NCBI GenBank assembly: GCA_017398355.1
Contig: JAFQGD010000002.1
Location: 6,926 to 70,925, forward strand
DNA length: 64,000 bases
Direction of reading: 5' to 3'
From: Akkermansia sp.
GTDB taxonomy: Bacteria; Verrucomicrobiota; Verrucomicrobiia; Verrucomicrobiales; Akkermansiaceae
The notes below the pieces were generated by a model. The model did not search any database. It saw only the letters and a program-made list of their open reading frames with translations, and was not told the origin of the DNA. Of the stretch, positions 11,201-48,621 are shown piece by piece. The position numbers and the translations under genes are program-made. The first letter of the stretch is position 1, and each line of letters begins with the position of its first letter.

Positions 11201-12307
11201 GCCGCCAACGTTCCACGTGGAACCTGCGGAAAGCGTGGCTGACCCCACCGTCGTGTTGTCGACTGTCTGCAATTCACCCGCCTGCAATACAAGCTTGGTG
11301 ACGCTTAAATCACGGTCAAAATCCAAGATACCCCCCAGCACCCGCACGTCCGTCAAGGAGCTGGAAGAACCATTGTCTACAATTGTTTGGCGGTTGCTCC
11401 CCACTTTGATGAGGTTCAACCCGGCAGCCAATCGGCCACCGTAGCTATAATCGCTGTTGGCATCGCTTGTACCCAGCGTCAGTGTGTAGTCCGAGCCAAT
11501 GTTATTTTCTACCAGCACATCGCCTGTATCATCACCTTGGTCCAAACCTTTGATGCTTGTATCACCGGTAAGCACCAAGTTGATATCCTGCGGGGAACTA
11601 CCCGTTGTATCTACCGGGCTGTTGCTCAGTCCTGCGCTGCGGGTAAAATCAAACACCGTGTTCTTCCAATGTGCCCCGGATATATGCAAACTCACCGTCC
11701 CTCCATTCGAACTTTGATAGATACGCCCCGCAAACCAATTCCCCGTGTCTGTCCCATCGAATTTGAATATGGTCTCCCCGCTTGTGTTGGTGGCCTGCAA
11801 CAATAAATCACCACTGCCAGTCAAGTTCTCAAAATCATAGGTACCCGCACTCGGCAAATAAGTACCCACTATGGCCATATCCCCGGTCGCGGCACTCTCG
11901 GTTACGCTAATGGTGCCTTTGTACGTATTGTTCTCGCCTCCTAAGTAGAGAGAGTTCCCCTCCCCTACTTCTATCTGTGTAAGGGTCTGCCCCTCCAAAC
12001 CGTTGCTTGCCGTACCATAGGAGAAGCTGCCGACTTGTTCTCTATCCACCCAAAAGCCAACACTACCGGATGTATCCCATCCTGCACCGTTGTACGAACC
12101 ATATTGCTCTATGGAATATGTTGAGAAGATGAGGTAGTAGTTTCTTTTTACCTTTGTCGGCCCCTGTGCTGTCAGCCCATCACTTCCCACATAAATTGCC
12201 GCTACATCATCGACTACAAGAGGCTCTCCTGCTGCCATTACTACAGTAGACATGCTTACAAAGCTTACAAGCCATTTGTACAGCTTAGGGTGAAGATGCA
12301 GTTTCAT
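5272..12307 (-). pseudogene. Giant (~2,340 aa) PEP-CTERM surface protein with autotransporter-associated beta-strand repeats, split by a 1-nt frameshift into ORFs 9083..12307 and 5272..~9118
   Basis: The signal peptide is on the upstream ORF only and the C-terminal VPEPTTTTLSLLALSTLLARRRRS sorting signal is on the downstream ORF only. PATR-like motifs KDGEAMLVLGSYNTFTGG and KMGDGMAVIATANSYSGG occur in both halves. Deleting one G of the G6 tract (9113-9118) fuses the frames as ...NLVGGTTLQLGATAENTDGAVNWTP. Confidence 0.85.
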
Positions 12308-27277: not shown

Positions 27278-28324
27278 TTATCGGATAATTCCACGGATGA
27301 GGATATCTCTCCCGCAGCTAAGGTGATATTCTGTTTCAAAATCCAGCTCTTTTGGCAGATAATCCCCGGGTAACAATTCATCAGGTCCACCGGTAAGGCG
27401 CGGGGTTAGAATCTGCACCCATTCATCCACCAGACCTTGTTCCAAAAATTGCCGCAGCAAATTGCCACCGCACTCCAACATGAGCTGCACAATGCCGTAC
27501 TCTCTATACAAGGTCTCCAACCAAGTAGAGAAATTCTTCACATTTTCGCATATCAATGTTCGTTGGGCTTCGTCATCACTCAAAAGTTGAGATGTGGAAG
27601 GAATGCTGCTTTCATCCCTTGTCAATACGATACGCCAAGGCTGTATTTTCGCTTTGGGTATACTTGTCTTTGGCGTGCGTATGGTGAGCGCCGGATCATC
27701 TGTTCGCACTGTATTGCCTCCCACCAAGATAGCATCACTCTCCAATCTCAGTTGATGTGCTTCTTTCACAGATTCAGGGCAACTAAGCCACCCCCCGTTT
27801 TGTCGGGTCATTCTTCCGTCCAGGCTGCATGCCACTTTTGCAACGACCCAAGGTCTTTTGTGCCGGATAGCGTGCATCCATGGCCTTAAAAGACCATCAC
27901 AGGCCTCTTTACATACCCCGCTGCGTACTCTCACCCCTGCGGCTTTCAAAACTTCATCTGCTCGCCCCCGGTGGCGTTTATCAGGGTCTGTGCTGCCATA
28001 GACCACTTCACTAATTCCACATTGTATGATGGCCTCTGTACATGGCGGCGTGCGACCATAGCTGGAGCATGGTTCAAGTGTCACATAAATCGTTGCACCT
28101 TTCAGGCGCGCTTCATGTCCACGCAAAATGGCATTGGCTATTGCTCGACGCTCTGCATGCGGCTCCCCTGCCCTTTCGTGAAACCCCTCTCCTAAAAGCA
28201 AATTGTCTTTGACGATAACTGCTCCTACCGGCGGATTCGGACTGGTTGTACCTAACCCCTGCCTGGCTTGTGCCAATGCTCGGTACATCCAAAGTTCATC
28301 CGGGCTTATTTCCTGCGTGTTCAT
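27278..28324 (-). CDS. ribD: Riboflavin biosynthesis bifunctional deaminase/reductase
   Basis: PNPPVGAV, HAERRA, YVTLEPCSSYGRTPPC, KVACSLDG, DAILVGGNTVRTDDPALT and ECGG. Confidence 0.95.
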   Translation of the reverse strand: MNTQEISPDELWMYRALAQARQGLGTTSPNPPVGAVIVKDNLLLGEGFHERAGEPHAERRAIANAILRGHEARLKGATIYVTLEPCSSYGRTPPCTEAIIQCGISEVVYGSTDPDKRHRGRADEVLKAAGVRVRSGVCKEACDGLLRPWMHAIRHKRPWVVAKVACSLDGRMTRQNGGWLSCPESVKEAHQLRLESDAILVGGNTVRTDDPALTIRTPKTSIPKAKIQPWRIVLTRDESSIPSTSQLLSDDEAQRTLICENVKNFSTWLETLYREYGIVQLMLECGGNLLRQFLEQGLVDEWVQILTPRLTGGPDELLPGDYLPKELDFETEYHLSCGRDILIRGIIR

Positions 28325-28379
28325 GCCGCTATTGTACTGCTAGAGTGGTCTCTTGTCAAAAAACGAATGACGTCCGCTC

Positions 28380-28620
28380 GTTCGTTACCTACCTGATGAT
28401 AGAAGAATTTAAATTTAAATTTCTTCATCATATACTATGTGAATAACTCTAATAAGTCGCCTATCTGATTGATTTTAATATAAAAACTAGGATGATAACC
28501 GGTGAATAATTTGGGGGATAAGTGACCGTTGTTGTTAAGGAAAAAATTATTCACCGGTTCATTCACACTTATTCACATACTTTATTAACATTTTGTGTTA
28601 ATAAAGTATGCAAGTTATTG
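28380..28620. other. Candidate chromosomal replication origin (oriC)
   Basis: AT-rich intergenic region. TTATTCACA boxes at 28438-28446 (rc) and 28569-28577; variants at 28501-28509, 28513-28521, 28547-28555, 28559-28567, 28582-28590 and 28596-28604. AT-only run AATTTAAATTTAAATTT. parS cluster adjacent. Confidence 0.75.
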
Positions 28621-28624
28621 ATTA

Positions 28625-29272
28625 TCAATCTGTTAAACTAAACTCTGAGAAGAACTTGATTGGCGCCATGATGGGAATTGCCAGATTATATAGGACCGTT
28701 CCCGGTACGTCTATTACAAGAAAATCTACTTTACTAAATATGTTATTCATGATGGGTGTTTCTCTTGGCGTGCGCTCTCCTACTATTATACAGTTTTCTA
28801 TCTTCTTAGGGAGTTTAATCTCTGCACGTATAGGATATACTTTTGCCCCTTTTAAGGTACTCTTCCACTCACCCGGTGTTGCTTTGATTTCTTCTGTCAA
28901 ATCCTCGATGTCGGCATATCCATCTTGCCTCATAAGTACATGTGCGGTTCCCTCGGATATGCGGTGATACATAATCACATCTTGGGCATCTTTTCGAATA
29001 ATTTGATACTCCGGTTCATTGTTCTCTGTGTGCAAGATGGTATCCTTTACGATGGGATAATCCTTCTGCAACGTGACAACTTGAGCCGGTAAATACCAGT
29101 GTCCCTCAGATTTGTAAATGTTCCATGTGGAACATTTTTGGTTGGAAAGTAACTTACCATGATAATGGCATCCCATCTCTTCTACTTGTTTATGAGTTTG
29201 CATATAGGCACAAGATGTGCATAGCGTGCAAATGCAGAGTAAGGATAAGAGAGAAAAAAATTGCCTATTCAT
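28625..29272 (-). CDS. Hypothetical lipoprotein
   Basis: MNRQFFSLLSLLCICTLCTSC lipobox-type signal; TTGACA-16-TAAAAT lies 9 nt upstream; hydrophobic C-terminus. Confidence 0.65.
   Translation of the reverse strand: MNRQFFSLLSLLCICTLCTSCAYMQTHKQVEEMGCHYHGKLLSNQKCSTWNIYKSEGHWYLPAQVVTLQKDYPIVKDTILHTENNEPEYQIIRKDAQDVIMYHRISEGTAHVLMRQDGYADIEDLTEEIKATPGEWKSTLKGAKVYPIRAEIKLPKKIENCIIVGERTPRETPIMNNIFSKVDFLVIDVPGTVLYNLAIPIMAPIKFFSEFSLTD
29119..29134. promoter_or_regulatory. parS-like site 1 (inside the lipoprotein CDS)
   Basis: TGTTCCATGTGGAACA, the reverse complement of the other three copies; resembles the parS consensus TGTTTCACGTGAAACA. Confidence 0.8.
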
Positions 29273-29328
29273 GATAGGCAAATTTTATCAGAACTGTGGC
29301 AAATGTCAAACAGTAAGTAAAAATTAAA

Positions 29329-29344
29329 TGTTCCACATGGAACA
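29329..29344. promoter_or_regulatory. parS-like site 2
   Basis: TGTTCCACATGGAACA, intergenic. Confidence 0.85.
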
Positions 29345-29352
29345 TTTAAAGC

Positions 29353-30774
29353 TCATTCCCCTGCCCTGCTCTGCTGGATGGAATGCGTGGTTGGAATGAC
29401 CGGTGGGAGTAAAAGATGGGGGATTGTTTGCGCTGCTTTAGCGTTGTCCCTCCAAAGTTCTTGTGTATCCTGGTAAACTTCAGCTTTTGCAAGATTAATT
29501 GCAATGCAGCAGGCTTCGTGCATACGTTTCCATGGAGTAATAAGGTATGCAGACTGCTCGGTTACTCTCTCGAAAGAATTTTGGAAGCGATTGAAAGCTT
29601 CTTGAGAGACATTAAGAGAATGCTGGGCTTCCTTCCATTTTCCTTGCTGAGCTTTTAAGCGAGCTGAAAGAGAAGCCCGCAAGCAATCTCTGACAAGGAT
29701 GACGGCATCAAAGTGTTTCCATGCCGGATGAGGAGTTGCTGCTTGAGAAGCAGCTGTGATATTGCCTTGAGAAAGTTTTTTCTGTTCGGCCACAAGTATA
29801 CGTAATGGTAAGGTATTGCATTCCCATCGTTGTAAAATACCGACGGGGCTTAAAGCTTGTTCTTTTTTTACCTGAGCAGCGTTGAGCGCTTTTCTAAGTT
29901 TTAAAGCTTCGCCATAATTTCCTGCGCTCCATAGAGCGGTGGCTTCATATATGCGAGATTTCCACCAGAGGGGAGATTCATGAAGAGATAATCCTCTTTG
30001 CGATGAAAGAAGTGCTGCTTTATTGAAATAAGTGGCGGCTTCTTGATGATGGCCTATCCGGCTGAGAAGATGTCCCATGAGATGTTGTGGCATGGGATGA
30101 TTTGAATAGACATCTGCAGCTTGTAATGCAGATGCGAGCGCATCTGATGATATACCGGGTGCAGTTTGCTCCACGTACGCGCGCGCGTAGCATATAAGAG
30201 CATCATCCGGATACTGTTTGCATAGCTTGGATATCCTTTCTAAAGCTCGTTGTTGAAATGAACTCGGTTCACCGGTTTCCGGGTGGTAAGCTACATCTAT
30301 GCTATGAAGTAGAATAATGGCCCATACGGCAGAGATTTTATCTGCTCTGAATTGATCAGCACGCTTGCATAAATCTTCACACGCACCGGCGTAATCCCTA
30401 GCGGAGAGTTTAAGCATTGTTTCCACGAGGAACAATTCCTGTGGAAGAAGTGATGAACTTCCAACATATTCTTTAAGCTTAGCTCGTGAATCGGGACCTG
30501 TATCGCCTCCTACCAGGCACATTCCGGCGTGCGCAAATATACATGTTTCATCTACTGAAAGGGCAGTTTCAAAGTGTTTTCTGGCAGATTCATCCCAGCC
30601 GAAGATTAAATCTAAGAGAGCACTCCTGCATTCATTTTGGGCAGTGATATTGTCTGTGCTAAGAGGAAATGCAAGAGTCGGCACATTATTTTGTGCCGAC
30701 TCTACTTCTGCCATTGCCGTTAATATGATACCGGGAAGGGCAACTAAAGCGGAAATTTGTTCCACATGGAACAT
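29353..30774 (-). CDS. TPR-like helical exported protein
   Basis: Ala/Leu-rich helical repeats (YPDDALICYARAY, HPMPQHLMGHLLSRIGHHQEAATYFNKA); signal-like N-terminus; starts 2 nt after the argS stop. Confidence 0.7.
   Translation of the reverse strand: MFHVEQISALVALPGIILTAMAEVESAQNNVPTLAFPLSTDNITAQNECRSALLDLIFGWDESARKHFETALSVDETCIFAHAGMCLVGGDTGPDSRAKLKEYVGSSSLLPQELFLVETMLKLSARDYAGACEDLCKRADQFRADKISAVWAIILLHSIDVAYHPETGEPSSFQQRALERISKLCKQYPDDALICYARAYVEQTAPGISSDALASALQAADVYSNHPMPQHLMGHLLSRIGHHQEAATYFNKAALLSSQRGLSLHESPLWWKSRIYEATALWSAGNYGEALKLRKALNAAQVKKEQALSPVGILQRWECNTLPLRILVAEQKKLSQGNITAASQAATPHPAWKHFDAVILVRDCLRASLSARLKAQQGKWKEAQHSLNVSQEAFNRFQNSFERVTEQSAYLITPWKRMHEACCIAINLAKAEVYQDTQELWRDNAKAAQTIPHLLLPPVIPTTHSIQQSRAGE
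30758..30773. promoter_or_regulatory. parS-like site 3
   Basis: TGTTCCACATGGAACA; overlaps the start of the TPR gene, where it encodes MFHVEQ. Confidence 0.85.
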
Positions 30775-30776
30775 TT

Positions 30777-32531
30777 TTACATCCTGTCTGGCATATCGAT
30801 ACCGAAGAGTCCCATGCCGTGCTTCAGGACACGGGCTGTCAATTCGCAGAGCGCGAGTCGGCTTTCTCGCACTTCTCCTTCGCTACGCAAGACGGGGCAT
30901 GCTTCGTAGAAACTATGGAAAGCACGGGCCAAATCGTAGAGATAAGCAGCTAAGAGGTTGGGTCGGCAATCGTCTAGGGTTGAGGGTACAACCTCGCCAT
31001 ATCTCACGAGCATGCGTGCCAAATGAATCTCGGCATCGGCTTCAAGATGGATGTTTTCCGGGGCAGAGAAGGGGGTCTCTATCTTACGGAAAATAGAACG
31101 CACGCGAACGTAGGAGTTCTGAAGGTAGGGGGCTGTGTCACCGGTGAGGGCAAGCATTTTATCCCAGTCGAAGATGTAGTCACTCATGCGGTTTTGGGAC
31201 AATTCTGCGAACTTGATTGCACCGATACCGACCATTTGTGCGACCTCAGCTTTTTGATCAGCCGGCATGTCAGGACTCTTCTCTTCAATGACCTTTGTAG
31301 CACGCGTAACTGCTTCATCTATAACGTCTTGCAAGCTTACAGTGTCTCCGGAACGCGTTTTGAAGGGCTTGCGATCTTTCCCGAGGATAGAACCGAATGC
31401 TACGTGGCGGAAATCGCCTGTCACACCGCGCATACGTTCGATGTCGAATATCTGCTTGAAGTGCTTATCTTGTGGAGCGCCTACTACATACCAGATAGAA
31501 TCGGCGTTGAAATTTTGTGTGCGGTAATCAAGAGTAGCCAAGTCAGTTGTGGCGTAGAGGAAACCACCATCCGCCTTGCGGATGATGGCAGGGACGGGTA
31601 ACCATTCTCCATTTTTTTGCACGAGGAAGGGGTCATTCTGTGGCTTATGGAAACCATCGGAGAAGACACAAATAGCGCCGTCACTTTCTCGGGCAATACC
31701 CTTGGCGATGAGGTCTTCGACAAGCGGAGCGAGAGCATCATTATATGCACTTTCGCCCAGCCAGTAGTCAAAGCTGATGTTAAGTTGGCTGTAAATCTTC
31801 TCAAGACCAATCTTGGTAACGGCGATACATTTCTTCCAAATTTCCAAGTTCTCCGTATCACCGCTTTGCAGTTTCACCAACTCAGCTTTACAGGTTTCCA
31901 AGAGCCCTTCTTCTTCCTTGCATTTTGTGTTCACTTCCTTATACACAGAGAGCAGGGCTTCGATTGGGTCTTTATCAAGGTCTTCTTGGTTGAGGATATT
32001 TTTCCAACCCCAGAGAATCATGCCGAATTGGGTACCCCAGTCACCGATGTGGTTATCTGTAATGACTGTGTGTCCCATAAATCGAGCTAAGCGCCCGAGT
32101 GTATCACCAATGATGGTAGAACGAATATGCCCCACGTGCATGGGCTTGGCCACATTGGGGGCAGAGAAGTCGATGACGAGCGTTTTCGGTTGTTCTACAA
32201 GCGCCACACCTAAGCGTTCATCGTGGAGCATGGCGGCCGTATTAGCTGCAAAGTACTCCGGGCGTACACGGAAATTGATAAATCCGGGACCGGCAATTTC
32301 CAAGCTTGCAATGGGCGAATCTCCGAACTGTTCCACTACTTGTGTTGCCAGCTGACGCGGATTGGTGCGGGCTTGCTTAGCGAGCATCATAGCCGCGTTG
32401 CTTTGATAGTCACCAAAACGTAAATCTTGTGATGGCGTAACGGCCGGGCTAAAGCCTTCCGGGAGAGCATCACCCAGAATTTGCTTCAGCACAGAGGCAA
32501 GTTTTTGGGAAAGTTGTGTAGGAATTGTCAT
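30777..32531 (-). CDS. argS: Arginyl-tRNA synthetase
   Basis: GDYQSN, GPGFINF, DFSAPNVAKPMHVGHIRSTIIGD, HIGDWGTQFG and TGDTAPYLQ. Start moved to 32531, downstream of a TTGACA-17-TATATA promoter (32569-32541). Confidence 0.97.
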   Translation of the reverse strand: MTIPTQLSQKLASVLKQILGDALPEGFSPAVTPSQDLRFGDYQSNAAMMLAKQARTNPRQLATQVVEQFGDSPIASLEIAGPGFINFRVRPEYFAANTAAMLHDERLGVALVEQPKTLVIDFSAPNVAKPMHVGHIRSTIIGDTLGRLARFMGHTVITDNHIGDWGTQFGMILWGWKNILNQEDLDKDPIEALLSVYKEVNTKCKEEEGLLETCKAELVKLQSGDTENLEIWKKCIAVTKIGLEKIYSQLNISFDYWLGESAYNDALAPLVEDLIAKGIARESDGAICVFSDGFHKPQNDPFLVQKNGEWLPVPAIIRKADGGFLYATTDLATLDYRTQNFNADSIWYVVGAPQDKHFKQIFDIERMRGVTGDFRHVAFGSILGKDRKPFKTRSGDTVSLQDVIDEAVTRATKVIEEKSPDMPADQKAEVAQMVGIGAIKFAELSQNRMSDYIFDWDKMLALTGDTAPYLQNSYVRVRSIFRKIETPFSAPENIHLEADAEIHLARMLVRYGEVVPSTLDDCRPNLLAAYLYDLARAFHSFYEACPVLRSEGEVRESRLALCELTARVLKHGMGLFGIDMPDRM

Positions 32532-32590
32532 CTCGCGCGTTATATACACCTTCATAAGTGTTTTGTCAATCTCTACGCACGTCTGTATAT

Positions 32591-32606
32591 TGTTCCACAT
32601 GGAACA
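32591..32606. promoter_or_regulatory. parS-like site 4
   Basis: TGTTCCACATGGAACA, intergenic between two divergent promoters. Confidence 0.85.
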
Positions 32607-32636
32607 AAAGTTATCGTGTAGTCACGTCTAAAAAGC

Positions 32637-32665
32637 TTGCTGTATAGGGAAATTTATGCTATATA
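32637..32665 (+). promoter_or_regulatory. sigma70 promoter with no downstream plus-strand ORF
   Basis: TTGCTG-17-TATATA with an extended -10 TG. It points into a 150-nt non-coding stretch that ends at a convergent gene. Confidence 0.6.
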
Positions 32666-32668
32666 AGA

Positions 32669-32812
32669 CTCGCTGCTGCGTTCGTGACGCGTGGTTCTAC
32701 AGGCCCGGACCGATGTAATATAATAAGGGGCACAAAAGCCAAGGGAGTTAATGTTCCGTCCAGATGGATACCTCAGAGAACCCCGGCTCCGCACCCACCT
32801 AGCTAACGGGAA
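32669..32812 (+). ncRNA. Putative structured small RNA, 6S RNA-like
   Basis: It has its own promoter and no ORF. The 5' end CTCG..GCT can pair with the 3' AGCTAACGGG; GGTTCT (32693-32698) pairs with AGAACC (32777-32782); inner GGAC/GTCC. This gives a long imperfect rod with internal bubbles. The family call is inference. Confidence 0.5.
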
Positions 32813-32820
32813 CGTGGCTC

Positions 32821-33336
32821 TCATACCACTGACGGCGCAGCGGCTTCTTTATTTGTCCAGATAATGGAGTAGTGTGAATCGAAGGGGCGTACACTTTCGG
32901 GGAAGCGGTTAGCATAATCCAAAAGGGAAGGGAGAAGTTCACCGGTGGCATAGCTGACTAATTTTTGCCAGGTATCCTGATGAAGCAGGGCAGGGCAATC
33001 TTTGTAGCAGGCGATACAGAGTTCGTGCCGGTCATTTTTCATGAGGCGAATAGGCCAGACTCTGCATTCAAAGGGGCGTTGTTCACGAGGAAGGGAGCAA
33101 CCTTTTGCGGGGTCGAGAAGGGGGCAATTGCAGGTATCTTCCGGGTTATGGGATAAGAAGTGCAGAGCGAAGCTTTGTGAGCCATTTAGGCGGGTAGTGA
33201 GTTGTATTTTTTGCTCGGCCAGTTGAGCAGCCAGGGGAGGCTCAAGAAAAGGTGTTTCCCAAGCAGACCGTTGGCAAAAATTACAACACAGTCGGCATTG
33301 GGCACAAGTCGAGGGACTGAAGATGTGGGTCAACAT
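32821..33336 (-). CDS. YkgJ-family cysteine-cluster (CxxCxxCC) protein
   Basis: CAQCRLCC ... CPLLD..KGCSL....RPFECRVWP. Confidence 0.8.
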   Translation of the reverse strand: MLTHIFSPSTCAQCRLCCNFCQRSAWETPFLEPPLAAQLAEQKIQLTTRLNGSQSFALHFLSHNPEDTCNCPLLDPAKGCSLPREQRPFECRVWPIRLMKNDRHELCIACYKDCPALLHQDTWQKLVSYATGELLPSLLDYANRFPESVRPFDSHYSIIWTNKEAAAPSVV

Positions 33337-34232
33337 AAAGAGATGCGTGGTATGGCATTTAATTTGCGAAGAAGCAGGGCAGGGCGGTAGGATAGCTTAG
33401 CTTGCCGCAAGCCGGGTTGGTTTAAATCCTCTTCACGGTTGATGAAGGTACAGGCAAGGGAGAGAGCCATCTCGCGGTTGATGATGGGGTAGGCATCTCT
33501 ATATTCGGGCAGGCATTTTTCGTAATGAACATCGGCCGTATCCTGGGAGATAAAAGAAGCAAGTGTCATCGCAACGGGTGTGTCATCTACATAGAGCACA
33601 CCACCCATCAGGGAGAGTTCGCGGAAGTTACCCAGCGCGGAGCAAATGGCTTTTTGTTCATGCAAAAGGGAAGGGGAGTCATCTAGCCGCGCGGCATACC
33701 ATTGTTTTGCTACGGTGAAGGCATCACCTATATTTGCATCTACCAATGGTAAAAAGCTCCATTGCGGGAACCGGCGAGAGAAGCGAGCGATATGGTTGCG
33801 TTTTTTATGAAAAGCAGTGCCGGGCAATTCTGCCAAATCTGTGCGGCGGTAAATATAGTCAGCATCTCCGGGGTCTGTTGTGAAATCGTATAGATTGGGG
33901 CGGAGCTGTTGCAGCAAGGCCGCATCCGTTTCGGTAAGTAAGCAGAATCGACAGGGACGCTGGCGCGCGGTGGCATCTGCCTCTATTTGCCTGAGTGCCC
34001 ACTCCGTATCACCCATGCCACAGGGAAAGGCGTAGCCTTGGAATCGTCCCTGACCCCCATAATGGCGGAATAAAAAATCCCTTTGAATGGCCACTTGTGT
34101 CTTGTATTTTTCTTGCAGCAAATAAAGATTGGCAAAAGCTAAATCATTACCCATACCATGTGCAGCGGCAACCAAGGAAGAGATGGTGGGTGCGTCATCC
34201 AAGACGGGAGCATAAAAAGGAAGAGCGTGCAT
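33330..34232 (-). CDS. DUF2156 / phosphatidylglycerol-lysyltransferase C-terminal-like GNAT protein
   Basis: FANLYL, DYIYRRTDLAELPGTAFHKKRNHIARF, VHYEKC and INREEDLNQPGLRQAKLSYRP. Confidence 0.85.
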   Translation of the reverse strand: MHALPFYAPVLDDAPTISSLVAAAHGMGNDLAFANLYLLQEKYKTQVAIQRDFLFRHYGGQGRFQGYAFPCGMGDTEWALRQIEADATARQRPCRFCLLTETDAALLQQLRPNLYDFTTDPGDADYIYRRTDLAELPGTAFHKKRNHIARFSRRFPQWSFLPLVDANIGDAFTVAKQWYAARLDDSPSLLHEQKAICSALGNFRELSLMGGVLYVDDTPVAMTLASFISQDTADVHYEKCLPEYRDAYPIINREMALSLACTFINREEDLNQPGLRQAKLSYRPALLLRKLNAIPRISLC

Positions 34233-34245
34233 GGTAGGGGGAGAG

Positions 34246-34956
34246 TTAATCTTGCAAGTTCCAGCCGTGTTCCCCGTGGTATATCATTTGGCGGGTCATG
34301 CCGCCATCTATGCAGATGTTTTCACCGGTAATGAATCCGGCCTTATCGGAGCAGAGGAAAAGCACCATGTGGGCGATGTCTTCCGGTACACCCACTCGGC
34401 CGGCCGGATGTTGTGTAGCGTCCGGTCCTTCGTATGATGTACCTCGCGTTTCAATCCACCCGGGGGAGATGGAGTTTACGCGAACGCGCCCTGCCAAGGA
34501 GACAGCCAAGGCATGAGTAAGGGCAGCAATGCCGCCTTTGGCCGCAGCGTAGCATTCTGTACCGGGCATACTCATCCTATCCCGACTGGATGATATATTG
34601 ACGATAGCAGCTCCGGGAGCAAAGTGATTCATGAAAAGTTTTGCCAGCATGTAAGGTGCAGTCACCCCTACTTGCAATGCATAGTTAAACTCTTCCCAGG
34701 TACAATCGGGAAGTCCTTTGAAAAGCGGAGCAGCATTATTGATGATAAAGTCCACCTTACCAAATTTTGCCAACACTTGTTCAGCAAAAGTACGCAAATC
34801 ACCTTCGCAAGCCAAGTTCCCCACAAATCCGGGATTATCCTGCACGTCAAAAATGCACACATTGGCTCCTGCAGCGTGGAATTGCTCTGCTATGCATTTG
34901 CCTATTCCCTGTGCAGCTCCGGTGATGATGGCTACTTTTCCTTTAAAATCCAGCAT
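34246..34956 (-). CDS. Short-chain dehydrogenase/reductase
   Basis: TGAAQGIG, NNAA, NISS, YAAAKGG and RVNSISPGWI. Confidence 0.92.
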   Translation of the reverse strand: MLDFKGKVAIITGAAQGIGKCIAEQFHAAGANVCIFDVQDNPGFVGNLACEGDLRTFAEQVLAKFGKVDFIINNAAPLFKGLPDCTWEEFNYALQVGVTAPYMLAKLFMNHFAPGAAIVNISSSRDRMSMPGTECYAAAKGGIAALTHALAVSLAGRVRVNSISPGWIETRGTSYEGPDATQHPAGRVGVPEDIAHMVLFLCSDKAGFITGENICIDGGMTRQMIYHGEHGWNLQD

Positions 34957-34992
34957 GAGCTTATCTTAACGGTGGGCAGCGTTTTTGTCAAT

Positions 34993-36495
34993 CTACTTGC
35001 GCGCGGCTTTCGTTTGTCTCACTATAGTGTACATAGCTCGCGCCAAGGAAGCTTTATCACTCAGCGGTACATCAGTATCGTATGCCCATATCATCACACC
35101 GCCAAATTTCTCTTTTTTCATCCAACGGCATTTTTCGCGTATCAAATCCGGTCCGTTAAAACTATGTACAGGGCCAATTGAGCCATCCTTATTTTTGGAG
35201 ATACACTCATTCACATTCGGCTTGAGTCTCGGATACCAGCTGCGTATTTGAGAGTAGCCGAATTGTTGTGTCAGTTTGCCCTTTTCATTGCTGTAAAAGG
35301 GCAGGCCTATGACAATGCGCTGGCGCGGCATCTTAAAATCATTGAGGCATTTATTTGCATCATTTTGGAATCGCCACATAGAGGAATGCTCAGCAGCCAG
35401 GTCATCGTAAGACATGGTCATAATGAAATCCAGCTGGTCTGTCACATAAATGATGGGGATTTTGTAGGTCACGGATGCCGCAAGGCTGATAGAAAGATCT
35501 GAGCCCGCCAATTCTTCTCGCAATTCTGCCAGAAACAGGCCGAAGTTTTGCCATTGTTCCGGTGTGTCGGGGTATTCCCAGTCAATATCAATGCCGTTAT
35601 ACCCTCGTTTAATGGCCCAGCGGGCCATATTGCGTGCAAGCATCCGGCGGGTATCGGGTTGAGCTACAGCGGCGGTCATGGGTTCATCCATGTGGCCGAA
35701 CCCGGCAATCAACCGTGCTTTGCCCTTGCTTTCTTTGCGCAAGCGTTTGATTTCTTGTAAGGCTTCATCTACCACTTGCGTAGCATCTGCCCCTTCTCCT
35801 ACCCATTGCAACCCCACTTCACCATCCGCTGTCACGGTGTAGGCAAAGTGAATCAAATCCGTCAGGAGTTCAAAATGCTGTGGCGTAAGGTGTACGGCCT
35901 TGGGGGCATTGCCCCAACCTTTGACCCAGCGTGGTCGGTAATACGGCACCACTCGGTGTGCAAAGGGGTACACACGCGCATATGTTTCGTTTTCCAGTGC
36001 TTCGCATTCCACCAACTCGGGAGAAATAGTTCCGCTTTCGGTTTGAATGCTGATACACTCGGCATCTATGATGTTGTTGGGAGCCGCGCTGCCGGCAAGA
36101 TCATAGACGAGCCAAAAATGATTCACTCCTTCCTGCAACTTGATTTTGCGTTTAAAGGTAAACTCCGGTTGCAGTGTTTTGACTTGGCCCAGCTCAGTGG
36201 CTCGGTTGTTTTCATCCCTCGCGTGGGGAGCAAACCCCGGATTGCTCCCCGAGGTGTACAACCTGGCTGCACGTATATCAGATATTTTCTTTGTTTGTCC
36301 GGTGGAGAAATGAAAAGCATGGATAGATTCCCCGGTGGTAGCGTACACCTTCACTTGCAGCAAGGCTTGGCGAGGCAATCCGCGGTAAAAGACATTGTGC
36401 GTGCGGCGTATTTCAGCCGTAGCGCCGCATGCAGAGCCAAGGCTCACGAAAAGGCCCAAGGAGAGAGAAAGTACAGAAGACAGGCGCCACAGCAT
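34993..36495 (-). CDS. Exported GH18 glycoside hydrolase (chitinase/endo-beta-N-acetylglucosaminidase-like) with a sialidase-associated N-terminal beta domain
   Basis: Signal peptide; LQEGVNHFWLVYDL...IDAECISI (BNR_assoc_N-like); catalytic GYNGIDIDWEYP; MSYD; GGVMIWAYDTD. Confidence 0.88.
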   Translation of the reverse strand: MLWRLSSVLSLSLGLFVSLGSACGATAEIRRTHNVFYRGLPRQALLQVKVYATTGESIHAFHFSTGQTKKISDIRAARLYTSGSNPGFAPHARDENNRATELGQVKTLQPEFTFKRKIKLQEGVNHFWLVYDLAGSAAPNNIIDAECISIQTESGTISPELVECEALENETYARVYPFAHRVVPYYRPRWVKGWGNAPKAVHLTPQHFELLTDLIHFAYTVTADGEVGLQWVGEGADATQVVDEALQEIKRLRKESKGKARLIAGFGHMDEPMTAAVAQPDTRRMLARNMARWAIKRGYNGIDIDWEYPDTPEQWQNFGLFLAELREELAGSDLSISLAASVTYKIPIIYVTDQLDFIMTMSYDDLAAEHSSMWRFQNDANKCLNDFKMPRQRIVIGLPFYSNEKGKLTQQFGYSQIRSWYPRLKPNVNECISKNKDGSIGPVHSFNGPDLIREKCRWMKKEKFGGVMIWAYDTDVPLSDKASLARAMYTIVRQTKAARK

Positions 36496-36577
36496 ACTCA
36501 CATCGTACCACAGCATGCGCATTTGTCAAACCTTCTTCTGCTTGACATTCGCGTAGCGGGCGCGTATGATAGCGCGC

Positions 36578-41973: not shown

Positions 41974-44900
41974 TCAGGATTCCTTGGCACCGTATTTCAC
42001 GAGCAAATCAGTGAGTGCTTGAGGCATTGTTTGTCTAAATCCCTGGTATTTACCTTTCAAATAATCCAAGAGGGTAGGCTTGCCGTTTTCTTCTTCTTGG
42101 ACATCTGCACCAAGCTTTATGAGCTCTTCCATTGTGGCGAGGAACTTTTGTTGCATTTCCGGTTTCTGGTGTGAAAAAATCGAGGGGGCTTTCCTGCACA
42201 TGTATCGCAAGATACTGTTTCCCTCATGGTTGCGGGTATTCAGATTAAAACCTTTTTCCTTGAGCAAACGAGCAACTTGGGGGATGTTGGCCCACGTGGC
42301 TTGATTATCTACCATGGTGTACAACAAGTGGTTGCCGCGTTCATCGCATGCGTTGGGATCTGCACCGTGTTGCAGTAGCAAGCTTACCAACTCCGGATTA
42401 CCTCTTGTATACAATAAGGGGTATGTGTAACCACCACGCCCCATGGAATTCGGGCTGGCCACGTTGGGGTTTGCTCCGCGTTCTAGCAACAATTTTAACT
42501 TCTTGGGTCTGCCGGATTGTACAGCACACAGCAGCATAGGTGTGGCATCTGTTGAGCGGCGGGTCATGCGGCTACCGCGGTTGAGAAGAAGCTCTACCAT
42601 AGCCACGGGGCAATTCCCCAGCAGAGCTACATGCAGGGGTGTGCTGGTGGTATCAGCACAGGTCATATTGGCCAGATGCGGGTGCGTGCAGAGTAGCTCT
42701 TCGACCTTGGTCATATTGTTAGACCGGATGGCTGTAAAGAGGTCATTTTTGAGTTGCGGGTCGGGAGTATCCGCAGAGTAAACATACTCTTTTACAATAG
42801 GATTATCTACAGAGAGAAGTTCTACGACAAAGCCTTTCCGGTAAATATGGTCCTCTGCCGGTACATCTTGCGTATTGCAGCGTTCGGCATTTTCGCGCAG
42901 GATGTTCATGACCTCTTGCCCCAAGGAATCCCAGCTCCCCTGGGCATCTTGGTAAGCTACGGCATGCACATAACGCGTGGCACTTTTATCATTCTTTATT
43001 TGTCGGTTAAATAAAGCTTCTTCTTCACCACCGCGTTGTCCCAGCATGTGTACACGTATGCCGGTCTTGCGCCGAGTAGCTTCGGCTTCTGCTTGGGGTA
43101 GGCTATCGAAATAGCGGATGAACTCCGTTTCTTCGATAGGATAGCCGGCAAGAGCAGTGCGCGATTCATCATTCAGGATGTCAGGGTACACAGTAAATCG
43201 ATTCCCATCGGGTGCGATAAAGTGTACATTCTGGAAGCTGACAATGGGAATACGGTTTATTGTGCGCTTAAGGGAGGTTTTGGGTGATTGAACAATGCGC
43301 TCCACTTTCGCATCAAAAGAAGCACCGCTCATGTTGGTGTGGTATGTCCATGTATGGATATTGTTTTTCTCTTTCCAATGGATGATATTTTCAATATCCT
43401 CGGTAGCAATTTCCGCTAAGGGGATTTCCAGCAAACGGCCGGATTCCAGCTGAAGCCACAGCTTGTTCTGATCTTCATCTTTGTTTTCGTAATCTGCTTT
43501 CAGGATGCGCGCCTTAATCGTTTGGGTTGTGGCATGGCGACCGGCTTGGGTAGCAAATTCCTTCTCCGCAGATAAGCTGGTATCTTGCTGCATGGCTGCT
43601 TGGGATAAGTGCCATGTATAAAGCTCAGAAGAGAAGGGGAGATGAGCATTGATATCTTGATTTGCATGGGGGGTGTGGTCGCGTTCTGCTACGGCAGGGT
43701 GATCTTCCACGGCCGTAGCTTGAAGCAAGCGCAGTGCAGCTGCGTATCGGGGTGCAGGGGTATTGTAGGCAGCTAGCCATTGTGTGCGCCATTGCTCACG
43801 CTCTGCTTGCGGTATTTTATCGCAATGCAAGATGCAAGGAATCAGATGTTGACCAAGCTCCGGGAAGCGGGCAATGGCAGGTATGGCCGTGTTCAACAAG
43901 CGGCGTGCATCTTGCTCTCGGCCTTGTTGGAGCATGGCCAAAGCGCGGTATACATCCGCCTCAATACGCAATTGAGCCAAATGAGCCTGTGAGCCGCGGT
44001 AGCCTGATGAAACTGCCACACCATTCAACGTAGTCAGCAAACACTCTGCATTGAAACATGCACTTTCAAACTGCCCGTTGGCAGCAAAGGCCGGGATGAG
44101 TACTTCCCGGGCAAAATGGCGGCTGCGAGAAGGCAAAAGTACTTGCAAGCGCTCGGTTTCCGTGTATTTTTCAGCATCAAGTAGCACTTGCAAAGCTTCC
44201 TCAATTTGGCCGGATTCCGGGGCTGCCAGTGAATAGTCGATAGCTGCCTGTGACACAGCAAGTTTCTCGTGCCACTTGGCTGCTTTTTCATCATGATCCA
44301 GCCTTGCAATCAGTGCTGCTGCAAGGCGGGTGGCAATGTAGCGGAAATTGACGGGGTTGGCAGACATATCCTTAAAGATACGGCGGGCGGTATCATGTTC
44401 TCCGCGTTCTACGGCATGCCGCACCATGAGATAACCCAATTTGGCAGCAGGTCCTCTGTATTTTTTGGGATCGAGTGACGTGTCGAACAAGGCATCGCAC
44501 ATACGATGATGATTGAGGATTGCACGCAGGGTGTTTACCTTGGGATATTGCTTACCATATGCTATCCATTTGCGGAGTATTTCCTCTTTCTCTGCATCCG
44601 ATTCAGGGGATATTTTGTTGCGAATGACCAGCAATTCATATATGAGCATGGATAGGGTTTCTGCATTCAATACGGCATCTCCAAATCCGTCTTTCTCTGT
44701 GCTTATGTGCTCTGCCAGGGTAAGCGCCATAGAGCGGGGCTTGAGTACTAAATCAACCCAAGCGCGCAACATATTCTGATTGTGGGTACAATGAGCCGTG
44801 AGGGCAACGATGCTGCGCGGGCTTAGTTGGCGCATAGCATATTGATTAAGCATGAGCGGCCAAGCGCGGTATTCATTGAGCACCGCTGCCAGTTCAGCCG

Positions 44901-46275: not shown

Positions 46276-46292
46276 GTGTTAAAGTGGCTGGG

Positions 46293-47228
46293 TTAGAACA
46301 TATCCGTCACAACATCAGGCAGAGTTTGGACGGGTGCTGTCGGGTCATCCTTCCATACCTTGATTTTCAGCATGACCGCTTCAGATTCGCTACTTTCTGT
46401 TTTTGTTTCGTCTTTGGTACTCGCTTTGGAGGGGGAGTTTGTGTTTCTGTTGCCAAGCAAACGTTGCATCATGGCGTTGCGTTTTTCTTGGGCTGCTTGC
46501 GCTTGGATAGCTTTGTGTTCCTCCACTTGGGCTGCCGCATCTGCCGGTACCCAGAAGGTCCAGCTTTTAGCGGCCGGAATTTGTTCTGTTTGTAGGCGTA
46601 TGGCTTCCGGCAATTCATTGAATCTTAATTTACGCGTTACGCGAGTATAGAAAGCAACACCTGTTTCGCGGGTTCCGCGGTTGATGTCTTTTAATGGCGT
46701 ATCACCCGCTTCTATTTCCATCTGCACTCCGAATTTAAGCGTTTGTACACCCTCTCTGCCGGCATTAGCTGCCAAAATTTCTTTTTCTTTTACAGCCTCT
46801 CTCTGCCGCAGAATGGGGCGGTATGCCTCGGCAACTTTTTTATACAATTGGCGCAGGTGATTGTCTGTAGTCTCTTCATCCCAAGTGCTTTGGTTGAGGA
46901 TGGTTTGTATGCGGTTGATGACTGCTTCGGCATCATAATCGCGGCGCTCAAATTGCTTGAGGGTGGCATTGCTCCAATATGTTGCTGCAGGGCAATCTGT
47001 TTTTTTCTCATCTTCAATCACTTGCCCTTCCCTGAAGGCTTTGGCAAATTGTCCTGCGCACACGTCTTGTGCAAAGGCTTTTCCGTAGCTCTCGGATGCG
47101 GAGCGTATACTGGCAGCGGTGCGGGTGGCAATGAGTTCGGCTATATCTTGCCGCAAGTTTTCCGGTGCGTCCTGAGCGTGCAGGGGAAGACTCACACATA
47201 TAAGAAAAAAGAGTTTTGCTATATTCAT
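46293..47228 (-). CDS. Exported protein, degenerate FKBP/FkpA-like
   Basis: Signal peptide. EILAANAGREGVQTLKFGVQMEIEAGD and ELPEAIRLQ..IPAAKSWTFWVPADAA loosely match FkpA/Mip N-domain and C-terminal PPIase segments. Confidence 0.5.
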   Translation of the reverse strand: MNIAKLFFLICVSLPLHAQDAPENLRQDIAELIATRTAASIRSASESYGKAFAQDVCAGQFAKAFREGQVIEDEKKTDCPAATYWSNATLKQFERRDYDAEAVINRIQTILNQSTWDEETTDNHLRQLYKKVAEAYRPILRQREAVKEKEILAANAGREGVQTLKFGVQMEIEAGDTPLKDINRGTRETGVAFYTRVTRKLRFNELPEAIRLQTEQIPAAKSWTFWVPADAAAQVEEHKAIQAQAAQEKRNAMMQRLLGNRNTNSPSKASTKDETKTESSESEAVMLKIKVWKDDPTAPVQTLPDVVTDMF

Positions 47229-47234
47229 AATCGT

Positions 47235-47957
47235 TTAATCGAGTGAAAGGTGAAAAAAGGAAGGTATGCTTTCAATGTGGCAGCGGATACGCACGCGCAA
47301 TGGTGCAGGCAAACATGTTTCTGCACCCCGGCCAAAGATTCTGTATGATTCATCCGCTTTGTTTTTATCGTGAAACACCTCTGTGAGTGTAAGTGTATCT
47401 TCATTGCCGGATAGAACGAGCGTACTTTTACTGCCATAGAAGAATAAATAGCAAAGTGGAGCGTAGCTTGGCTCAGGATGAAGTTGGCGAATGCGGGCAA
47501 AACACTCTTTCATGATTCCCCTATCGGGTGTTTCCTTCGTTAATTCTGCCGCAATAAGATGTTGTTGGTGGATGATAGCATCGATTTTTTCTTCGCCCAA
47601 ATGGCGTTCAGAGGGCCGAAAAACCGCTTGGGGTGTAAGGCGGTTTCCCATCTTCAGTGTACGTGTGATGGTGTAATCTTTGCGTTGCAGGGTTAGTGTG
47701 AGCTCTTGCCCCGGGGGTGTGGCAGTTATGAGTGCTCGCAATTCCTCTCGGGTTGAAAGTTTTTTGCCGTTTATGAGCAAAATGTAGTCCCCTGTATTAA
47801 TTCCCGCTTTGTCGGCCGGCCCACGGTGTGCTATTTCGGTCACGATTAGTTTGCCACGAGTGCCTGGAGCAGCTGCCAAGCCGGCGTATGGAGCAGCTTC
47901 TTCCCCACAGCAAATCCCCCCTAGCACTGCCAAAATGGTAAATACAAACGGTTTCAT
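47235..47957 (-). CDS. Exported PDZ-domain protein
   Basis: Signal peptide; PYAGL...LIVTEIAHRGPADKAGINTGDYILLINGK is a PDZ signature. Confidence 0.8.
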   Translation of the reverse strand: MKPFVFTILAVLGGICCGEEAAPYAGLAAAPGTRGKLIVTEIAHRGPADKAGINTGDYILLINGKKLSTREELRALITATPPGQELTLTLQRKDYTITRTLKMGNRLTPQAVFRPSERHLGEEKIDAIIHQQHLIAAELTKETPDRGIMKECFARIRQLHPEPSYAPLCYLFFYGSKSTLVLSGNEDTLTLTEVFHDKNKADESYRIFGRGAETCLPAPLRVRIRCHIESIPSFFHLSLD

Positions 47958-48031
47958 GTTATGTATGATATTTTATGGAATTATGCGAGAAATGCAAGTA
48001 TTTAGCTACGAAATACCAAAGTGGTAGAAAA

Positions 48032-48619: not shown

Positions 48620-48621
48620 GC

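What the first reader, a model, noticed from the sequence alone, without database searches (positions are those of the whole stretch)
28380..32610. Probable oriC with an adjacent cluster of variant parS sites, but no dnaA, parA or parB beside it
Seen: eight DnaA-box-like 9-mers using TTATTCACA rather than TTATCCACA, arranged in perfect inverted pairs (15-bp AACCGGTGAATAATT at 28497-28511 / 28545-28559; 12-bp ACTTTATTAACA at 28579-28590 / 28596-28607). Beside them is a near-palindromic AT tract (GAAGAATTTAAATTTAAATTTCTTC) that could be the unwinding element. By eye, plus-strand sequence is C-rich to the left and mostly G-rich to the right, with folC an exception. Established: parS sites and mnmE/dnaN usually cluster near oriC. 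Inference: this is the origin, placed between ribD and a lipoprotein gene and uncoupled from dnaA, which would define the origin architecture of a poorly studied lineage.
Basis: partly seen in the sequence, partly recalled or inferred. Interest (0 to 1): 0.7.

Follow-up and report, generated by a model that had tools for sequence, protein, structure and literature searches.

The report
Akkermansia replication origin beside ribD
This stretch is very probably the chromosome's replication origin in an uncultured gut Akkermansia, with its segregation (parS) sites alongside and the dnaA gene far away; the same layout is already predicted in the DoriC database for Akkermansia muciniphila, so it is a sound but ordinary finding.

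Summary
The 300-bp gap between ribD and a small exported-protein gene (window 28325-28624) has the densest cluster of DnaA-box-like 9-mers in the 2.26-Mb draft genome. It also has a 20%-GC near-palindromic tract and the contig's best GC-skew change point. The 14-mer GTTCCAYRTGGAAC occurs five times in the genome, all in this window, and four lie within 3.5 kb right of the boxes.

The boxes, AT tract and parS sites are conserved beside ribD in every Akkermansia genome examined, but not in three other genera of the family.

In two complete Akkermansia chromosomes the only minus-to-plus skew switch falls at ribD. In three, counting A. muciniphila, a single-copy dif-like site lies 50-53% of the chromosome away. 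dnaA lies 0.96-1.24 Mb from the origin in those genomes. In this genome it is about 11 kb from the dif-like site. parA and parB are on other contigs.

DoriC already places the A. muciniphila origin in the same ribD-upstream gap. TTATTCACA fits the accepted TTATNCACA consensus. The parS differs by one central base from the known Pseudomonas aeruginosa parS. No binding or replication experiment exists, and the coverage test was uninformative.

The parts
27278..28324 (-). ribD (riboflavin deaminase/reductase), the conserved left neighbour of the origin
   Evidence: Pfam RibD_C 2.5e-33 and dCMP_cyt_deam_1 1.8e-22. Its orthologues flank the box cluster in every Akkermansia genome examined.
28331..28359 (-). 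ribD promoter (TTGACA-17-TACAAT); the -10 hexamer ends 6 nt before the ATG
   Evidence: 11 of 12 consensus match. Both hexamers are invariant in the 5-species alignment.
28360..28624 (.). oriC core: DnaA-box cluster plus AT-rich unwinding candidate
   Evidence: Genome-wide densest box window. Skew change point at window ~28475. 82% mean identity across 5 species, with boxes and AT tract nearly invariant.
28396..28431 (.). Candidate DNA-unwinding element: near-palindrome ATGATAGAAGAATTTAAA/TTTAAATTTCTTCATCAT, 20% GC
   Evidence: It is almost invariant in 5 species, and a homologous purine-repeat plus AT-rich tract is present in G054, G087 and A. muciniphila.
28438..28446 (-). DnaA box, perfect TTATTCACA, directly beside the AT tract
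   Evidence: invariant in the alignment.
28501..28509 (-). DnaA box TTATTCACC, left arm of the 16-nt perfect inverted repeat
28547..28555 (+). DnaA box TTATTCACC, right arm of the 16-nt inverted repeat
28559..28577 (+). Two tandem DnaA boxes, TCATTCACA and perfect TTATTCACA
   Evidence: In relatives these positions read TGTGAATAA or TGTGGATAG, so position 5 varies between T and C.
28582..28604 (.). Inverted pair of TTATTAACA boxes (28582-28590 on +, 28596-28604 on -)
   Evidence: TTATTAACA is also the box chosen in the published A. muciniphila oriC entry.
28625..29274 (-). Small exported or lipoprotein-like gene with no Pfam family, the right neighbour of oriC; contains parS site 1
   Evidence: ORF, no family, promoter TTGACA-16-TAAAAT at 29309-29282.
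29119..29134 (-). parS site 1 (TGTTCCACATGGAACA read on the minus strand), inside a coding sequence
   Evidence: position conserved in L003 and L004.
29329..29344 (+). parS site 2, intergenic; also scores as a terminator-like hairpin
30758..30773 (+). parS site 3, overlapping the start of the TPR-protein gene
32591..32606 (+). parS site 4, at or upstream of the argS start
11209..11224 (.). parS site 5, CGTTCCACGTGGAACC, with a perfect palindromic 14-nt core, 17 kb left of oriC
29353..30774 (-). TPR-repeat protein gene lying within the parS cluster
30777..32600 (-). argS (arginyl-tRNA synthetase) lying within the parS cluster
   Evidence: Pfam tRNA-synt_1d 1.6e-106.

Best explanation
Window 28360-28624 is the DnaA-dependent chromosomal origin (oriC) of an uncultured Akkermansia species.

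Inferred mechanism, drawn from established oriC and ParABS biology: DnaA is encoded far away on contig C56. It binds the seven or eight TTATNCACA-type boxes, several of them in inverted pairs, and oligomerises. It then melts the adjacent conserved 20%-GC tract at 28396-31 so that helicases can load. The two forks leave in opposite directions, which produces the C-rich-left, G-rich-right skew switch seen exactly here.

The four TGTTCCACATGGAACA sites 0.5-4 kb to the right, plus one 17 kb to the left, are centromere-like parS sites. The genome's single canonical ParB (contig C48) nucleates on them. A ParA-like ATPase (contig C25) then segregates the newly replicated origins.

What is shown: motif enrichment, conservation, and position relative to GC skew and to the dif-like site. 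What is inferred: DnaA and ParB binding, unwinding and origin firing.
For: 1. Box density: highest in the genome, 7 in 400 bp against a next-best 4 and a mean of 0.44 per kb.

2. Skew: the best change point of contig C2 falls at the boxes, although flanking genes from 22 to 36 kb are all on the minus strand. Coding-strand bias therefore does not explain it.

3. Conservation: the intergenic region is 82% identical across 5 species, with boxes, AT tract and ribD promoter nearly invariant. Five more distant genus members, whose ribD is 47-57% identical, keep 1-3 perfect TTATNCACA boxes upstream of ribD and a TGTTCCACGTGGAAC[A/T] site just downstream of it.

4. Complete chromosome G087: sampled skew is uniformly negative from 2.35 Mb through the wrap to 0.368 Mb, and positive from 0.435 to 2.2 Mb. 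ribD is at 425 kb, the cumulative minimum is at 417.5 kb, and the best box cluster in 107 kb is the ribD upstream region.

5. Complete chromosome G054: the cumulative skew minimum within the 120-kb fine-mapped interval (1.18-1.30 Mb) is at 1,238,408. The boxes are at 1,237,894-1,238,002.

6. dif: a dif-like 26-mer is present exactly once in each of 8 genomes. It lies 49.6% (G054), 52.6% (G087) and about 51% (A. muciniphila) of the chromosome away from the ribD boxes.

7. dnaA regions show no skew switch and no box cluster.

8. DoriC ORI94030296 places the A. muciniphila ATCC BAA-835 oriC at 958,674-958,698. That is about 150 bp upstream of ribD at 957,488-958,519.

9. parS: the 14-mer occurs 1-5 times per genome in 12 of 12 genomes, against 0 for the reversed control. 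It is origin-proximal wherever that could be checked.

10. The genome encodes a ParB with ParB_N, HTH_ParB and ParB_C domains, and a DnaA scoring 476.9 bits against the TIGR00362 cut-off of 343.9.

11. TGTTCCACGTGGAACA is an experimentally studied parS in P. aeruginosa.
Against: There is no experimental evidence for DnaA or ParB binding, unwinding or autonomous replication in any Akkermansia that I could find.

The marker-frequency check was uninformative. Logan contig depths at the putative origin against the dif/dnaA region were 17.5-21.9 vs 15.6-17.5, 8.0-8.3 vs 7.1-8.0, 11.8-14.6 vs 11.1-11.7 and 34.9-35.2 vs 31.5-36.1. The direction fits, but the ratio is about 1.0-1.1 from coarse contig means.

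This genome is a 67-contig draft, so its own whole-replicon skew cannot be drawn. Several other contigs also show local skew change points.

In G087 the cumulative skew minimum is 7.6 kb from the boxes.

Most genes for tens of kb to the right are head-on to the proposed rightward fork.

The conserved A-middle trinucleotide repeats lie on the opposite strand, relative to the nearest box, from the canonical DnaA-trio arrangement.
Confidence: 0.88

Rival explanations
1. The box cluster is a DnaA-regulated promoter region or a DnaA titration or reactivation site (datA- or DARS-like) for ribD and the lipoprotein gene, and the true origin lies elsewhere.
For: The boxes sit between two divergent-looking promoter regions. 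DnaA-box clusters outside oriC are known in E. coli (my own knowledge). Read coverage did not single out this locus.
Against: No other locus in the genome has a comparable cluster. The cluster coincides with the ori-type skew switch in this contig and in two complete relatives, and lies opposite dif in three. It includes a conserved 20%-GC tract. DoriC's independent method picks the same gap in A. muciniphila.
Confidence: 0.05
2. The TGTTCCACATGGAACA palindromes are not centromere sites. They would instead be operators of a local transcription factor, or transcription-terminator hairpins.
For: Three of the four sites lie in intergenic DNA or at gene starts. Site 2 scores as an intrinsic terminator, with an 11-pair stem followed by a T run.
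Against: The sites match the P. aeruginosa parS2/3 at 15 of 16 positions, and relatives carry the identical 16-mer. There are only 1-5 copies per genome. They are always origin-proximal in complete genomes, and the reversed control finds none. Site 1 lies inside a coding sequence. A canonical ParB is encoded in the genome.
Confidence: 0.07
3. The origin is next to dnaA, as in many bacteria, and the ribD locus is a relic or secondary site.
For: dnaA-adjacent origins are the commonest arrangement (my own knowledge), and assemblies G054, G101 and G105 are numbered from dnaA.
Against: In G087 and G054 skew is uniformly negative across dnaA. In G054 no box-like 9-mer lies within 7 kb of the start of the assembly, where dnaA sits. 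In this genome only scattered single boxes lie near dnaA. Here dnaA lies about 10.6 kb from the dif-like site.
Confidence: 0.02

Closest known systems
DoriC entry ORI94030296, the predicted oriC of Akkermansia muciniphila ATCC BAA-835, as listed in the supplement of Pelliciari et al. 2021 (PMC8287927)
   Same: Same genus and same position, the gap immediately upstream of ribD. It uses the same box types (TTATTCACA, TTATTAACA, TGTGGATAA) and has a homologous purine-repeat plus AT-rich tract. dnaA is about 956 kb away.
   Different: A. muciniphila has a single parS, TGTTCCACGTGGAACA, on the ribD side. This species has four CA-centred copies on the other side plus one distal site. The inverted-pair arrangement of the boxes differs. 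Both origins are predictions without experiments.
E. coli-type oriC, which is unlinked from dnaA (gidA-mioC locus)
   Same: A DnaA-box cluster beside an AT-rich unwinding element, sited at the skew switch opposite dif, with dnaA elsewhere on the chromosome.
   Different: The flanking genes differ. There is no evidence here for GATC/SeqA control or IHF/Fis sites. In E. coli dnaA is about 40 kb from oriC (my own knowledge), whereas in Akkermansia it is 0.96-1.24 Mb away and, in this genome, next to the dif-like site.
Pseudomonas aeruginosa chromosomal parS cluster (parS1-4, TGTTCCACGTGGAAC[A/C]) (PMC4368675)
   Same: The same 16-mer family with C at position 5 and G at position 12, and a cluster of four sites next to oriC.
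   Different: The four sites in this window carry G9A, which breaks the central CG dyad; P. aeruginosa parS5 has the same CA centre. Here parA and parB are unlinked from each other and from oriC.
Basal unwinding system (BUS: DnaA box plus DnaA-trios) of B. subtilis and others (PMC8287927)
   Same: A DnaA box followed within 0-12 nt by trinucleotide repeats with a central A (TAG AAG AAG AAG in G054 and A. muciniphila; TAT GAT GAA GAA here) and then AT-rich DNA.
   Different: In the canonical BUS the A-middle trios lie 5' of a box read as TGTGGATAA. That orientation was checked against the E. coli/Shigella row of the paper's table. Here they lie 3' of a box read as TTATTCACA, which is the other strand.

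Membership tests
Bacterial DnaA-dependent oriC | Cluster of DnaA boxes (TTATNCACA-like) | tested here: met
   Seven boxes at one mismatch or less within 170 bp; top-ranked window of the genome.
Bacterial DnaA-dependent oriC | Adjacent AT-rich unwinding element | tested here: met
   20% GC at 28400-28449 against about 53% for the genome, and conserved. Actual unwinding was not testable.
Bacterial DnaA-dependent oriC | Located at the minus-to-plus GC-skew switch of the replicon | tested here: met
   Own contig change point at window ~28475. In complete relatives G087 and G054 the switch is at the orthologous ribD locus.
Bacterial DnaA-dependent oriC | Roughly opposite the terminus/dif | tested here: met
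   A single-copy dif-like site lies 49.6-52.6% of the chromosome away in three complete genomes.
Bacterial DnaA-dependent oriC | Cognate DnaA encoded in the genome | tested here: met
   TIGR00362 476.9 bits against a cut-off of 343.9; Bac_DnaA plus Bac_DnaA_C domains.
Bacterial DnaA-dependent oriC | Coverage (marker-frequency) peak in growing cells | tested here: inconclusive
   The origin to dif-region depth ratio was about 1.0-1.1 in four metagenome runs, taken from coarse contig means.
Bacterial DnaA-dependent oriC | DnaA binding, and initiation or autonomous replication | not testable with these tools
   Needs EMSA or ChIP, an unwinding assay and a minichromosome test.
Basal unwinding system (box plus DnaA-trios) | At least three NAN trios within 16 bp of a box, on the strand 5' of TGTGNATAA | tested here: not met
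   No run of three NAN trios within 30 nt 5' of TGTGAATAA at 28438 on the plus strand. The conserved A-middle repeats are on the other strand. A minimal three-trio pattern at 28583-28604 overlaps a palindromic box and is at chance level.
Chromosomal ParABS centromere (parS) | 16-bp inverted repeat matching the parS consensus | tested here: met
   15 of 16 to P. aeruginosa parS2/3 and 13 of 16 to TGTTTCACGTGAAACA.
Chromosomal ParABS centromere (parS) | Few copies per genome, concentrated near oriC | tested here: met
   Five copies, all within 21 kb and four within 3.5 kb. 1-6 copies (exact or degenerate 14-mer) in the genus genomes that carry the motif, which usually share one contig; the exact 14-mer was absent from 15 of 41, and reversed controls gave 1 hit and none.
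Chromosomal ParABS centromere (parS) | ParB with HTH domain and a ParA ATPase encoded | tested here: met
   ParB has ParB_N, HTH_ParB and ParB_C domains and scores 185.7 bits on TIGR00180. The ParA-like protein hits PF13614 at 2.1e-57 but falls below the NCBIfam equivalog cut-offs.
Chromosomal ParABS centromere (parS) | Specific ParB binding and spreading | not testable with these tools
   Needs ChIP-seq or in-vitro binding.

The most novel reading that the evidence does not exclude
Akkermansia origins may use a non-canonical unwinding geometry. The conserved A-middle trinucleotide repeats next to the AT tract lie on the opposite strand, relative to the flanking DnaA box, from the B. subtilis/E. 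coli box-plus-trio system. That would imply a DnaA filament loading on the other strand or from the other side. In addition, dnaA has drifted to within about 11 kb of the terminus in this species, which would give the initiator gene the lowest possible dosage during replication.
Probability: 0.12. Interest if true: 0.55.

Novelty: new member of a known kind. Interest (0 to 1): 0.3.

Why it matters
It fixes the origin, the parS cluster and, via the dif-like site, the terminus for a group of uncultured gut Akkermansia. That helps with growth-rate (peak-to-trough) estimates from metagenomes, with ordering draft contigs, and with designing replicating vectors for a genus of probiotic interest. It is also another clear case showing that dnaA is a poor marker of the origin; the OMM12 Hi-C study (PMC10197239) makes the same point. 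It does not reveal a new kind of origin, because DoriC already holds the orthologous prediction for the type species.

Tried and rejected
1. Ordering this draft's contigs by synteny to the complete relatives, to draw a whole-genome skew or coverage curve. Gene order is too scrambled between species for this.

2. Marker frequency from Logan contig depths. Depths at the origin and at the dif/dnaA region were nearly equal, so the test was uninformative.

3. A DNA-level search for the oriC fragment across the family. Only the genome itself was found, because blastn E-values are too weak for short AT-rich DNA. Protein-anchored loci worked instead.

4. An exact scan of genome contigs for the published A. 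muciniphila BUS string found nothing. The genome search found it at the published coordinates.

5. Avoidance of a restriction site as the reason for the CA instead of CG centre of parS. CACGTG is not notably depleted: observed/expected is 0.74 against 0.81-0.87 for CACATG and CATGTG.

6. An FMN riboswitch or other known RNA in the ribD leader. Rfam found only an SRP RNA elsewhere in the window.

7. Canonical DnaA-trio (BUS) membership was rejected on strand orientation.

8. Literature search for experimental work on the Akkermansia oriC or parS found nothing specific.
Full report
**What the window is.** The window is contig C2:6926-70925 of a 2.26-Mb, 67-contig draft genome. Its closest ribD relatives, at 83-88% amino-acid identity, are Akkermansia sp. 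MAGs; two are named from goat rectum and water-buffalo colon.

**1. The observation**

- The 16-nt repeat AACCGGTGAATAATTT at 28497-28512 is 100% complementary to 28544-28559.
- The ACTTTATTAACA / TGTTAATAAAGT pair at 28579-28590 and 28596-28607 is the perfect core of a longer 41-nt inverted repeat.
- The AT tract is an 18+18-nt near-palindrome at 28396-28431, and GC falls to 20% there.
- Seven 9-mers within one mismatch of TTATTCACA lie between 28438 and 28604. The eighth box needs two mismatches.

Across the genome, 9-mers within one mismatch of TTATYCACA occur at 0.44 per kb. The 400-bp window holding these boxes ranks first in the genome, with 7 hits against a next-best 4.

The 16-mer TGTTCCACATGGAACA occurs four times in the window, at 29119 (reverse orientation), 29329, 30758 and 32591, where shuffles give 0.63 matches at up to 3 mismatches. 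It occurs nowhere else in the genome, and the canonical TGTTTCACGTGAAACA is absent. Allowing either centre (GTTCCAYRTGGAAC) adds one more site, at window 11209.

**2. Surroundings**

- To the left is ribD on the minus strand, with a strong promoter (TTGACA-17-TACAAT, 28359-28331) that is conserved across species.
- To the right, all on the minus strand, are a small exported-protein gene, a TPR-protein gene, argS and further genes.
- The plus-strand GC skew changes from -0.072 to +0.029. Its best change point is contig position 35,400, or window ~28,475, which is inside the box cluster. Genes on both sides share one strand, so coding-strand bias cannot explain the switch.
- Other contigs also have local change points, but none of them has a box cluster.

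The initiation and partition genes are elsewhere.
- dnaA (TIGR00362 equivalog, 476.9 bits) is on contig C56. It lies between an Rrf2 regulator gene and thiL-like, CAAX-protease and dnaG genes, with no dnaN beside it.
- parB is on C48 and has all three ParB domains. It is flanked by a response regulator and an M28 peptidase, not by parA.
- A ParA-like ATPase is on C25, next to a comF-like gene.

**3. Conservation**

In four related Akkermansia MAGs the ribD-upstream gap aligns at 82% mean identity. The boxes, the stretch TTATTCACATAGTATATGATGAAGAAATTTAAATTTAAATTCTTCTATCATCA and the promoter hexamers are almost invariant. Position 5 of individual boxes switches between T and C, which is what a TTATNCACA site should tolerate. 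The parS-like 14-mers sit at matching positions in those MAGs.

Five more distant genus members, whose ribD is 47-57% identical, still have 1-3 perfect TTATNCACA boxes just upstream of ribD and a TGTTCCACGTGGAAC[A/T] site just downstream of it. Three complete genomes from other genera of the family have neither feature beside ribD.

Across the genus the exact 14-mer GTTCCACATGGAAC is found in 26 of 41 genomes, at 1-6 copies that usually share one contig; the reversed control gives one hit in total. The degenerate form is found in 12 of 12 genomes, at 1-5 copies, with no control hits.

Large-scale gene order between this genome and the complete relatives is scrambled. Persistence of the ribD-box-parS block is therefore itself informative.

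**4. Whole-chromosome tests in complete relatives**

*G087 (3,497,179 bp, one contig).* I sampled 20 kb every 87 kb. Skew is negative in every sample from 2.35 Mb through the wrap to 0.368 Mb. It is positive in every sample from 0.435 to 2.2 Mb.
- ribD is at 425,310.
- Fine mapping puts the cumulative minimum at 417.5 kb.
- The best box cluster in the 107-kb interval is at 424.9-425.4 kb.
- dnaA, at 2.807 Mb, sits in uniformly negative skew.

*G054 (3,175,525 bp).* Sampling was coarser, 20 kb every 160 kb. Skew is negative from 2.88 Mb through the wrap to 1.24 Mb, and positive from 1.245 to 2.72 Mb.
- The cumulative minimum within the 120-kb fine-mapped interval (1.18-1.30 Mb) is at 1,238,408.
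- The boxes are at 1,237,894-1,238,002.
- dnaA, at position 422, has no skew switch, and no box-like 9-mer lies within 7 kb of the start of the assembly.

*The terminus.* At the opposite, ter-type switch of G087 I found a dif-like sequence, ATTTTGCATTACATATATTATGCGAAGT. The 26-mer TTTTGCATTACATRTATTATGCGAAG occurs exactly once in each of eight genus genomes, with no control hits. Its distance from the ribD boxes is:

| Genome | Distance from ribD boxes (% of chromosome) |
|---|---|
| G054 | 49.6 |
| G087 | 52.6 |
| G101 | about 51 |

For G101 I used the 2.66-Mb size of ATCC BAA-835 from my own knowledge; the tool reports 2.7 Mb. An origin and a dif site are expected to lie opposite each other, so this supports the origin independently of skew.

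**5. What was already known**

The supplement of Pelliciari et al. 2021 (PMC8287927) lists DoriC entry ORI94030296 for A. muciniphila ATCC BAA-835, with a box-plus-trio element at 958,698-958,674. That string matches genome G101 exactly, at those coordinates. ribD in G101 is at 957,488-958,519.
- The published predicted oriC of the type species is therefore the same ribD-upstream gap.
- Its dnaA is at about 2.3 kb, roughly 956 kb away.
- Its only parS-like site is at 956,704.

The 16-mer TGTTCCACGTGGAACA is the perfect parS2/parS3 of Pseudomonas aeruginosa, and that organism's parS5 has the same CA centre as the sites here. TTATTCACA lies within the long-accepted TTATNCACA consensus (my own knowledge). 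The OMM12 Hi-C paper, which includes A. muciniphila YL44, already notes that origins do not always sit next to dnaA. I found no experimental study of an Akkermansia origin.

**6. Coverage**

Four gut-metagenome runs hold this sequence, but only as assembled contigs with mean word depth. Depths at the two ends of the proposed replichore were:

| Run | Proposed origin | dif/dnaA region |
|---|---|---|
| X1 | 17.5-21.9 | 15.6-17.5 |
| X2 | 8.0-8.3 | 7.1-8.0 |
| X3 | 11.8-14.6 | 11.1-11.7 |
| X4 | 34.9-35.2 | 31.5-36.1 |

 The direction fits an origin at ribD. The ratio of about 1.0-1.1 from contig means is too weak to count as evidence.

**7. Mechanism and open detail**

The best reading is a standard DnaA-dependent origin with an adjacent ParB-parS centromere. 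Binding, unwinding and firing are inferred, not shown.

One detail does not fit the textbook. The table in PMC8287927, checked against its E. coli/Shigella row, shows that canonical DnaA-trios (central A) lie 5' of a box read as TGTGGATAA. In Akkermansia the conserved A-middle repeats lie 3' of a box read as TTATTCACA, which is the other strand. These repeats are TAG AAG AAG AAG in G054 and A. muciniphila, and TAT GAT GAA GAA here. Either they are not trios, or the geometry differs. I leave this as the most novel reading not excluded.

**8. Verdict**

It is an orthologue of an origin already predicted in DoriC, built from box and parS types that are already known. The points specific to this genome are:
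- expansion from one parS to four plus one;
- the shared asymmetric CA centre of the four clustered sites;
- dispersal of dnaA, parA and parB;
- dnaA lying only about 10.6 kb from the dif-like site.

I rate interest as modest.

Noticed in passing
G000 contig C56:30586-31989 (dnaA) and C56:42630-42655 (dif-like); outside the window: In this genome dnaA lies about 10.6 kb from the single dif-like site, close to as far from oriC as a gene can be. In the complete relatives it is 350-540 kb from dif. Local skew on C56 changes only weakly (+0.02 to -0.02), so the placement rests mainly on the dif-like match.
   Followed up: partly
G087:2266118, G054:2812041, G101:2312985, G105:2632478, G000 C56:42630: The dif-like 26-mer TTTTGCATTACATRTATTATGCGAAG is single-copy in 8 of 8 Akkermansia genomes and lies opposite the ribD origin. 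By eye it matches E. coli dif at 19 of 28 positions. It looks like a usable terminus marker for the genus.
   Followed up: partly
window 28322-28359 and 29272-29309: Both strong promoters here end their -10 hexamer only 6-7 nt before the ATG: ribD with TTGACA-17-TACAAT, and the exported-protein gene with TTGACA-16-TAAAAT plus an upstream TG. This suggests leaderless mRNAs. The ribD arrangement is conserved in five species.
   Followed up: no
window 29324-29349: parS site 2 with its flanks (TTAAATGTTCCATGTGGAACATTTAA followed by a T run on the minus strand) also scores as an intrinsic terminator directly after the TPR-protein gene. The site may do double duty.
   Followed up: no
window 28625-36522 and 41974-55760: Almost all large genes to the right of the origin, including argS, are on the minus strand. 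They are therefore head-on to the rightward fork, yet plus-strand GC skew is positive there. Co-orientation bias appears weak or absent next to this origin.
   Followed up: partly
window 28396-28446; L097:1400-1475; G054:1237994-1238050: Conserved purine-rich trinucleotide repeats with a central A sit between a DnaA box and the AT-rich tract. They are on the opposite strand from canonical DnaA-trios.
   Followed up: partly
whole genome versus G087 and G054: Gene order between Akkermansia species is heavily scrambled: neighbouring genes on one G000 contig map to places hundreds of kb to more than 1 Mb apart in the relatives. The ribD-oriC-parS block nevertheless stays together.
   Followed up: partly
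L100:16946-17030 (G000 C56:42946-43030): A short element at 10-50 times the local depth, about 300 bp from the dif-like site, breaks the contigs in all four metagenome runs. The loose ends look like the end of a tRNA gene.
   Followed up: no
window 30758-30779 and 32589-32607, in runs X1 and X3: A 5,406-bp contig from a more abundant organism in the same samples (depth 60-73). In X1 it matches both parS-like words, about 1.4 kb apart on the contig; the X3 listing shows only the first. A co-resident relative probably uses the same centromere sequence.
   Followed up: no
window 2863-2958 (minus strand): Bacterial small SRP RNA (Rfam RF00169, 50.5 bits); the only Rfam family that passes its threshold in the window.
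   Followed up: no
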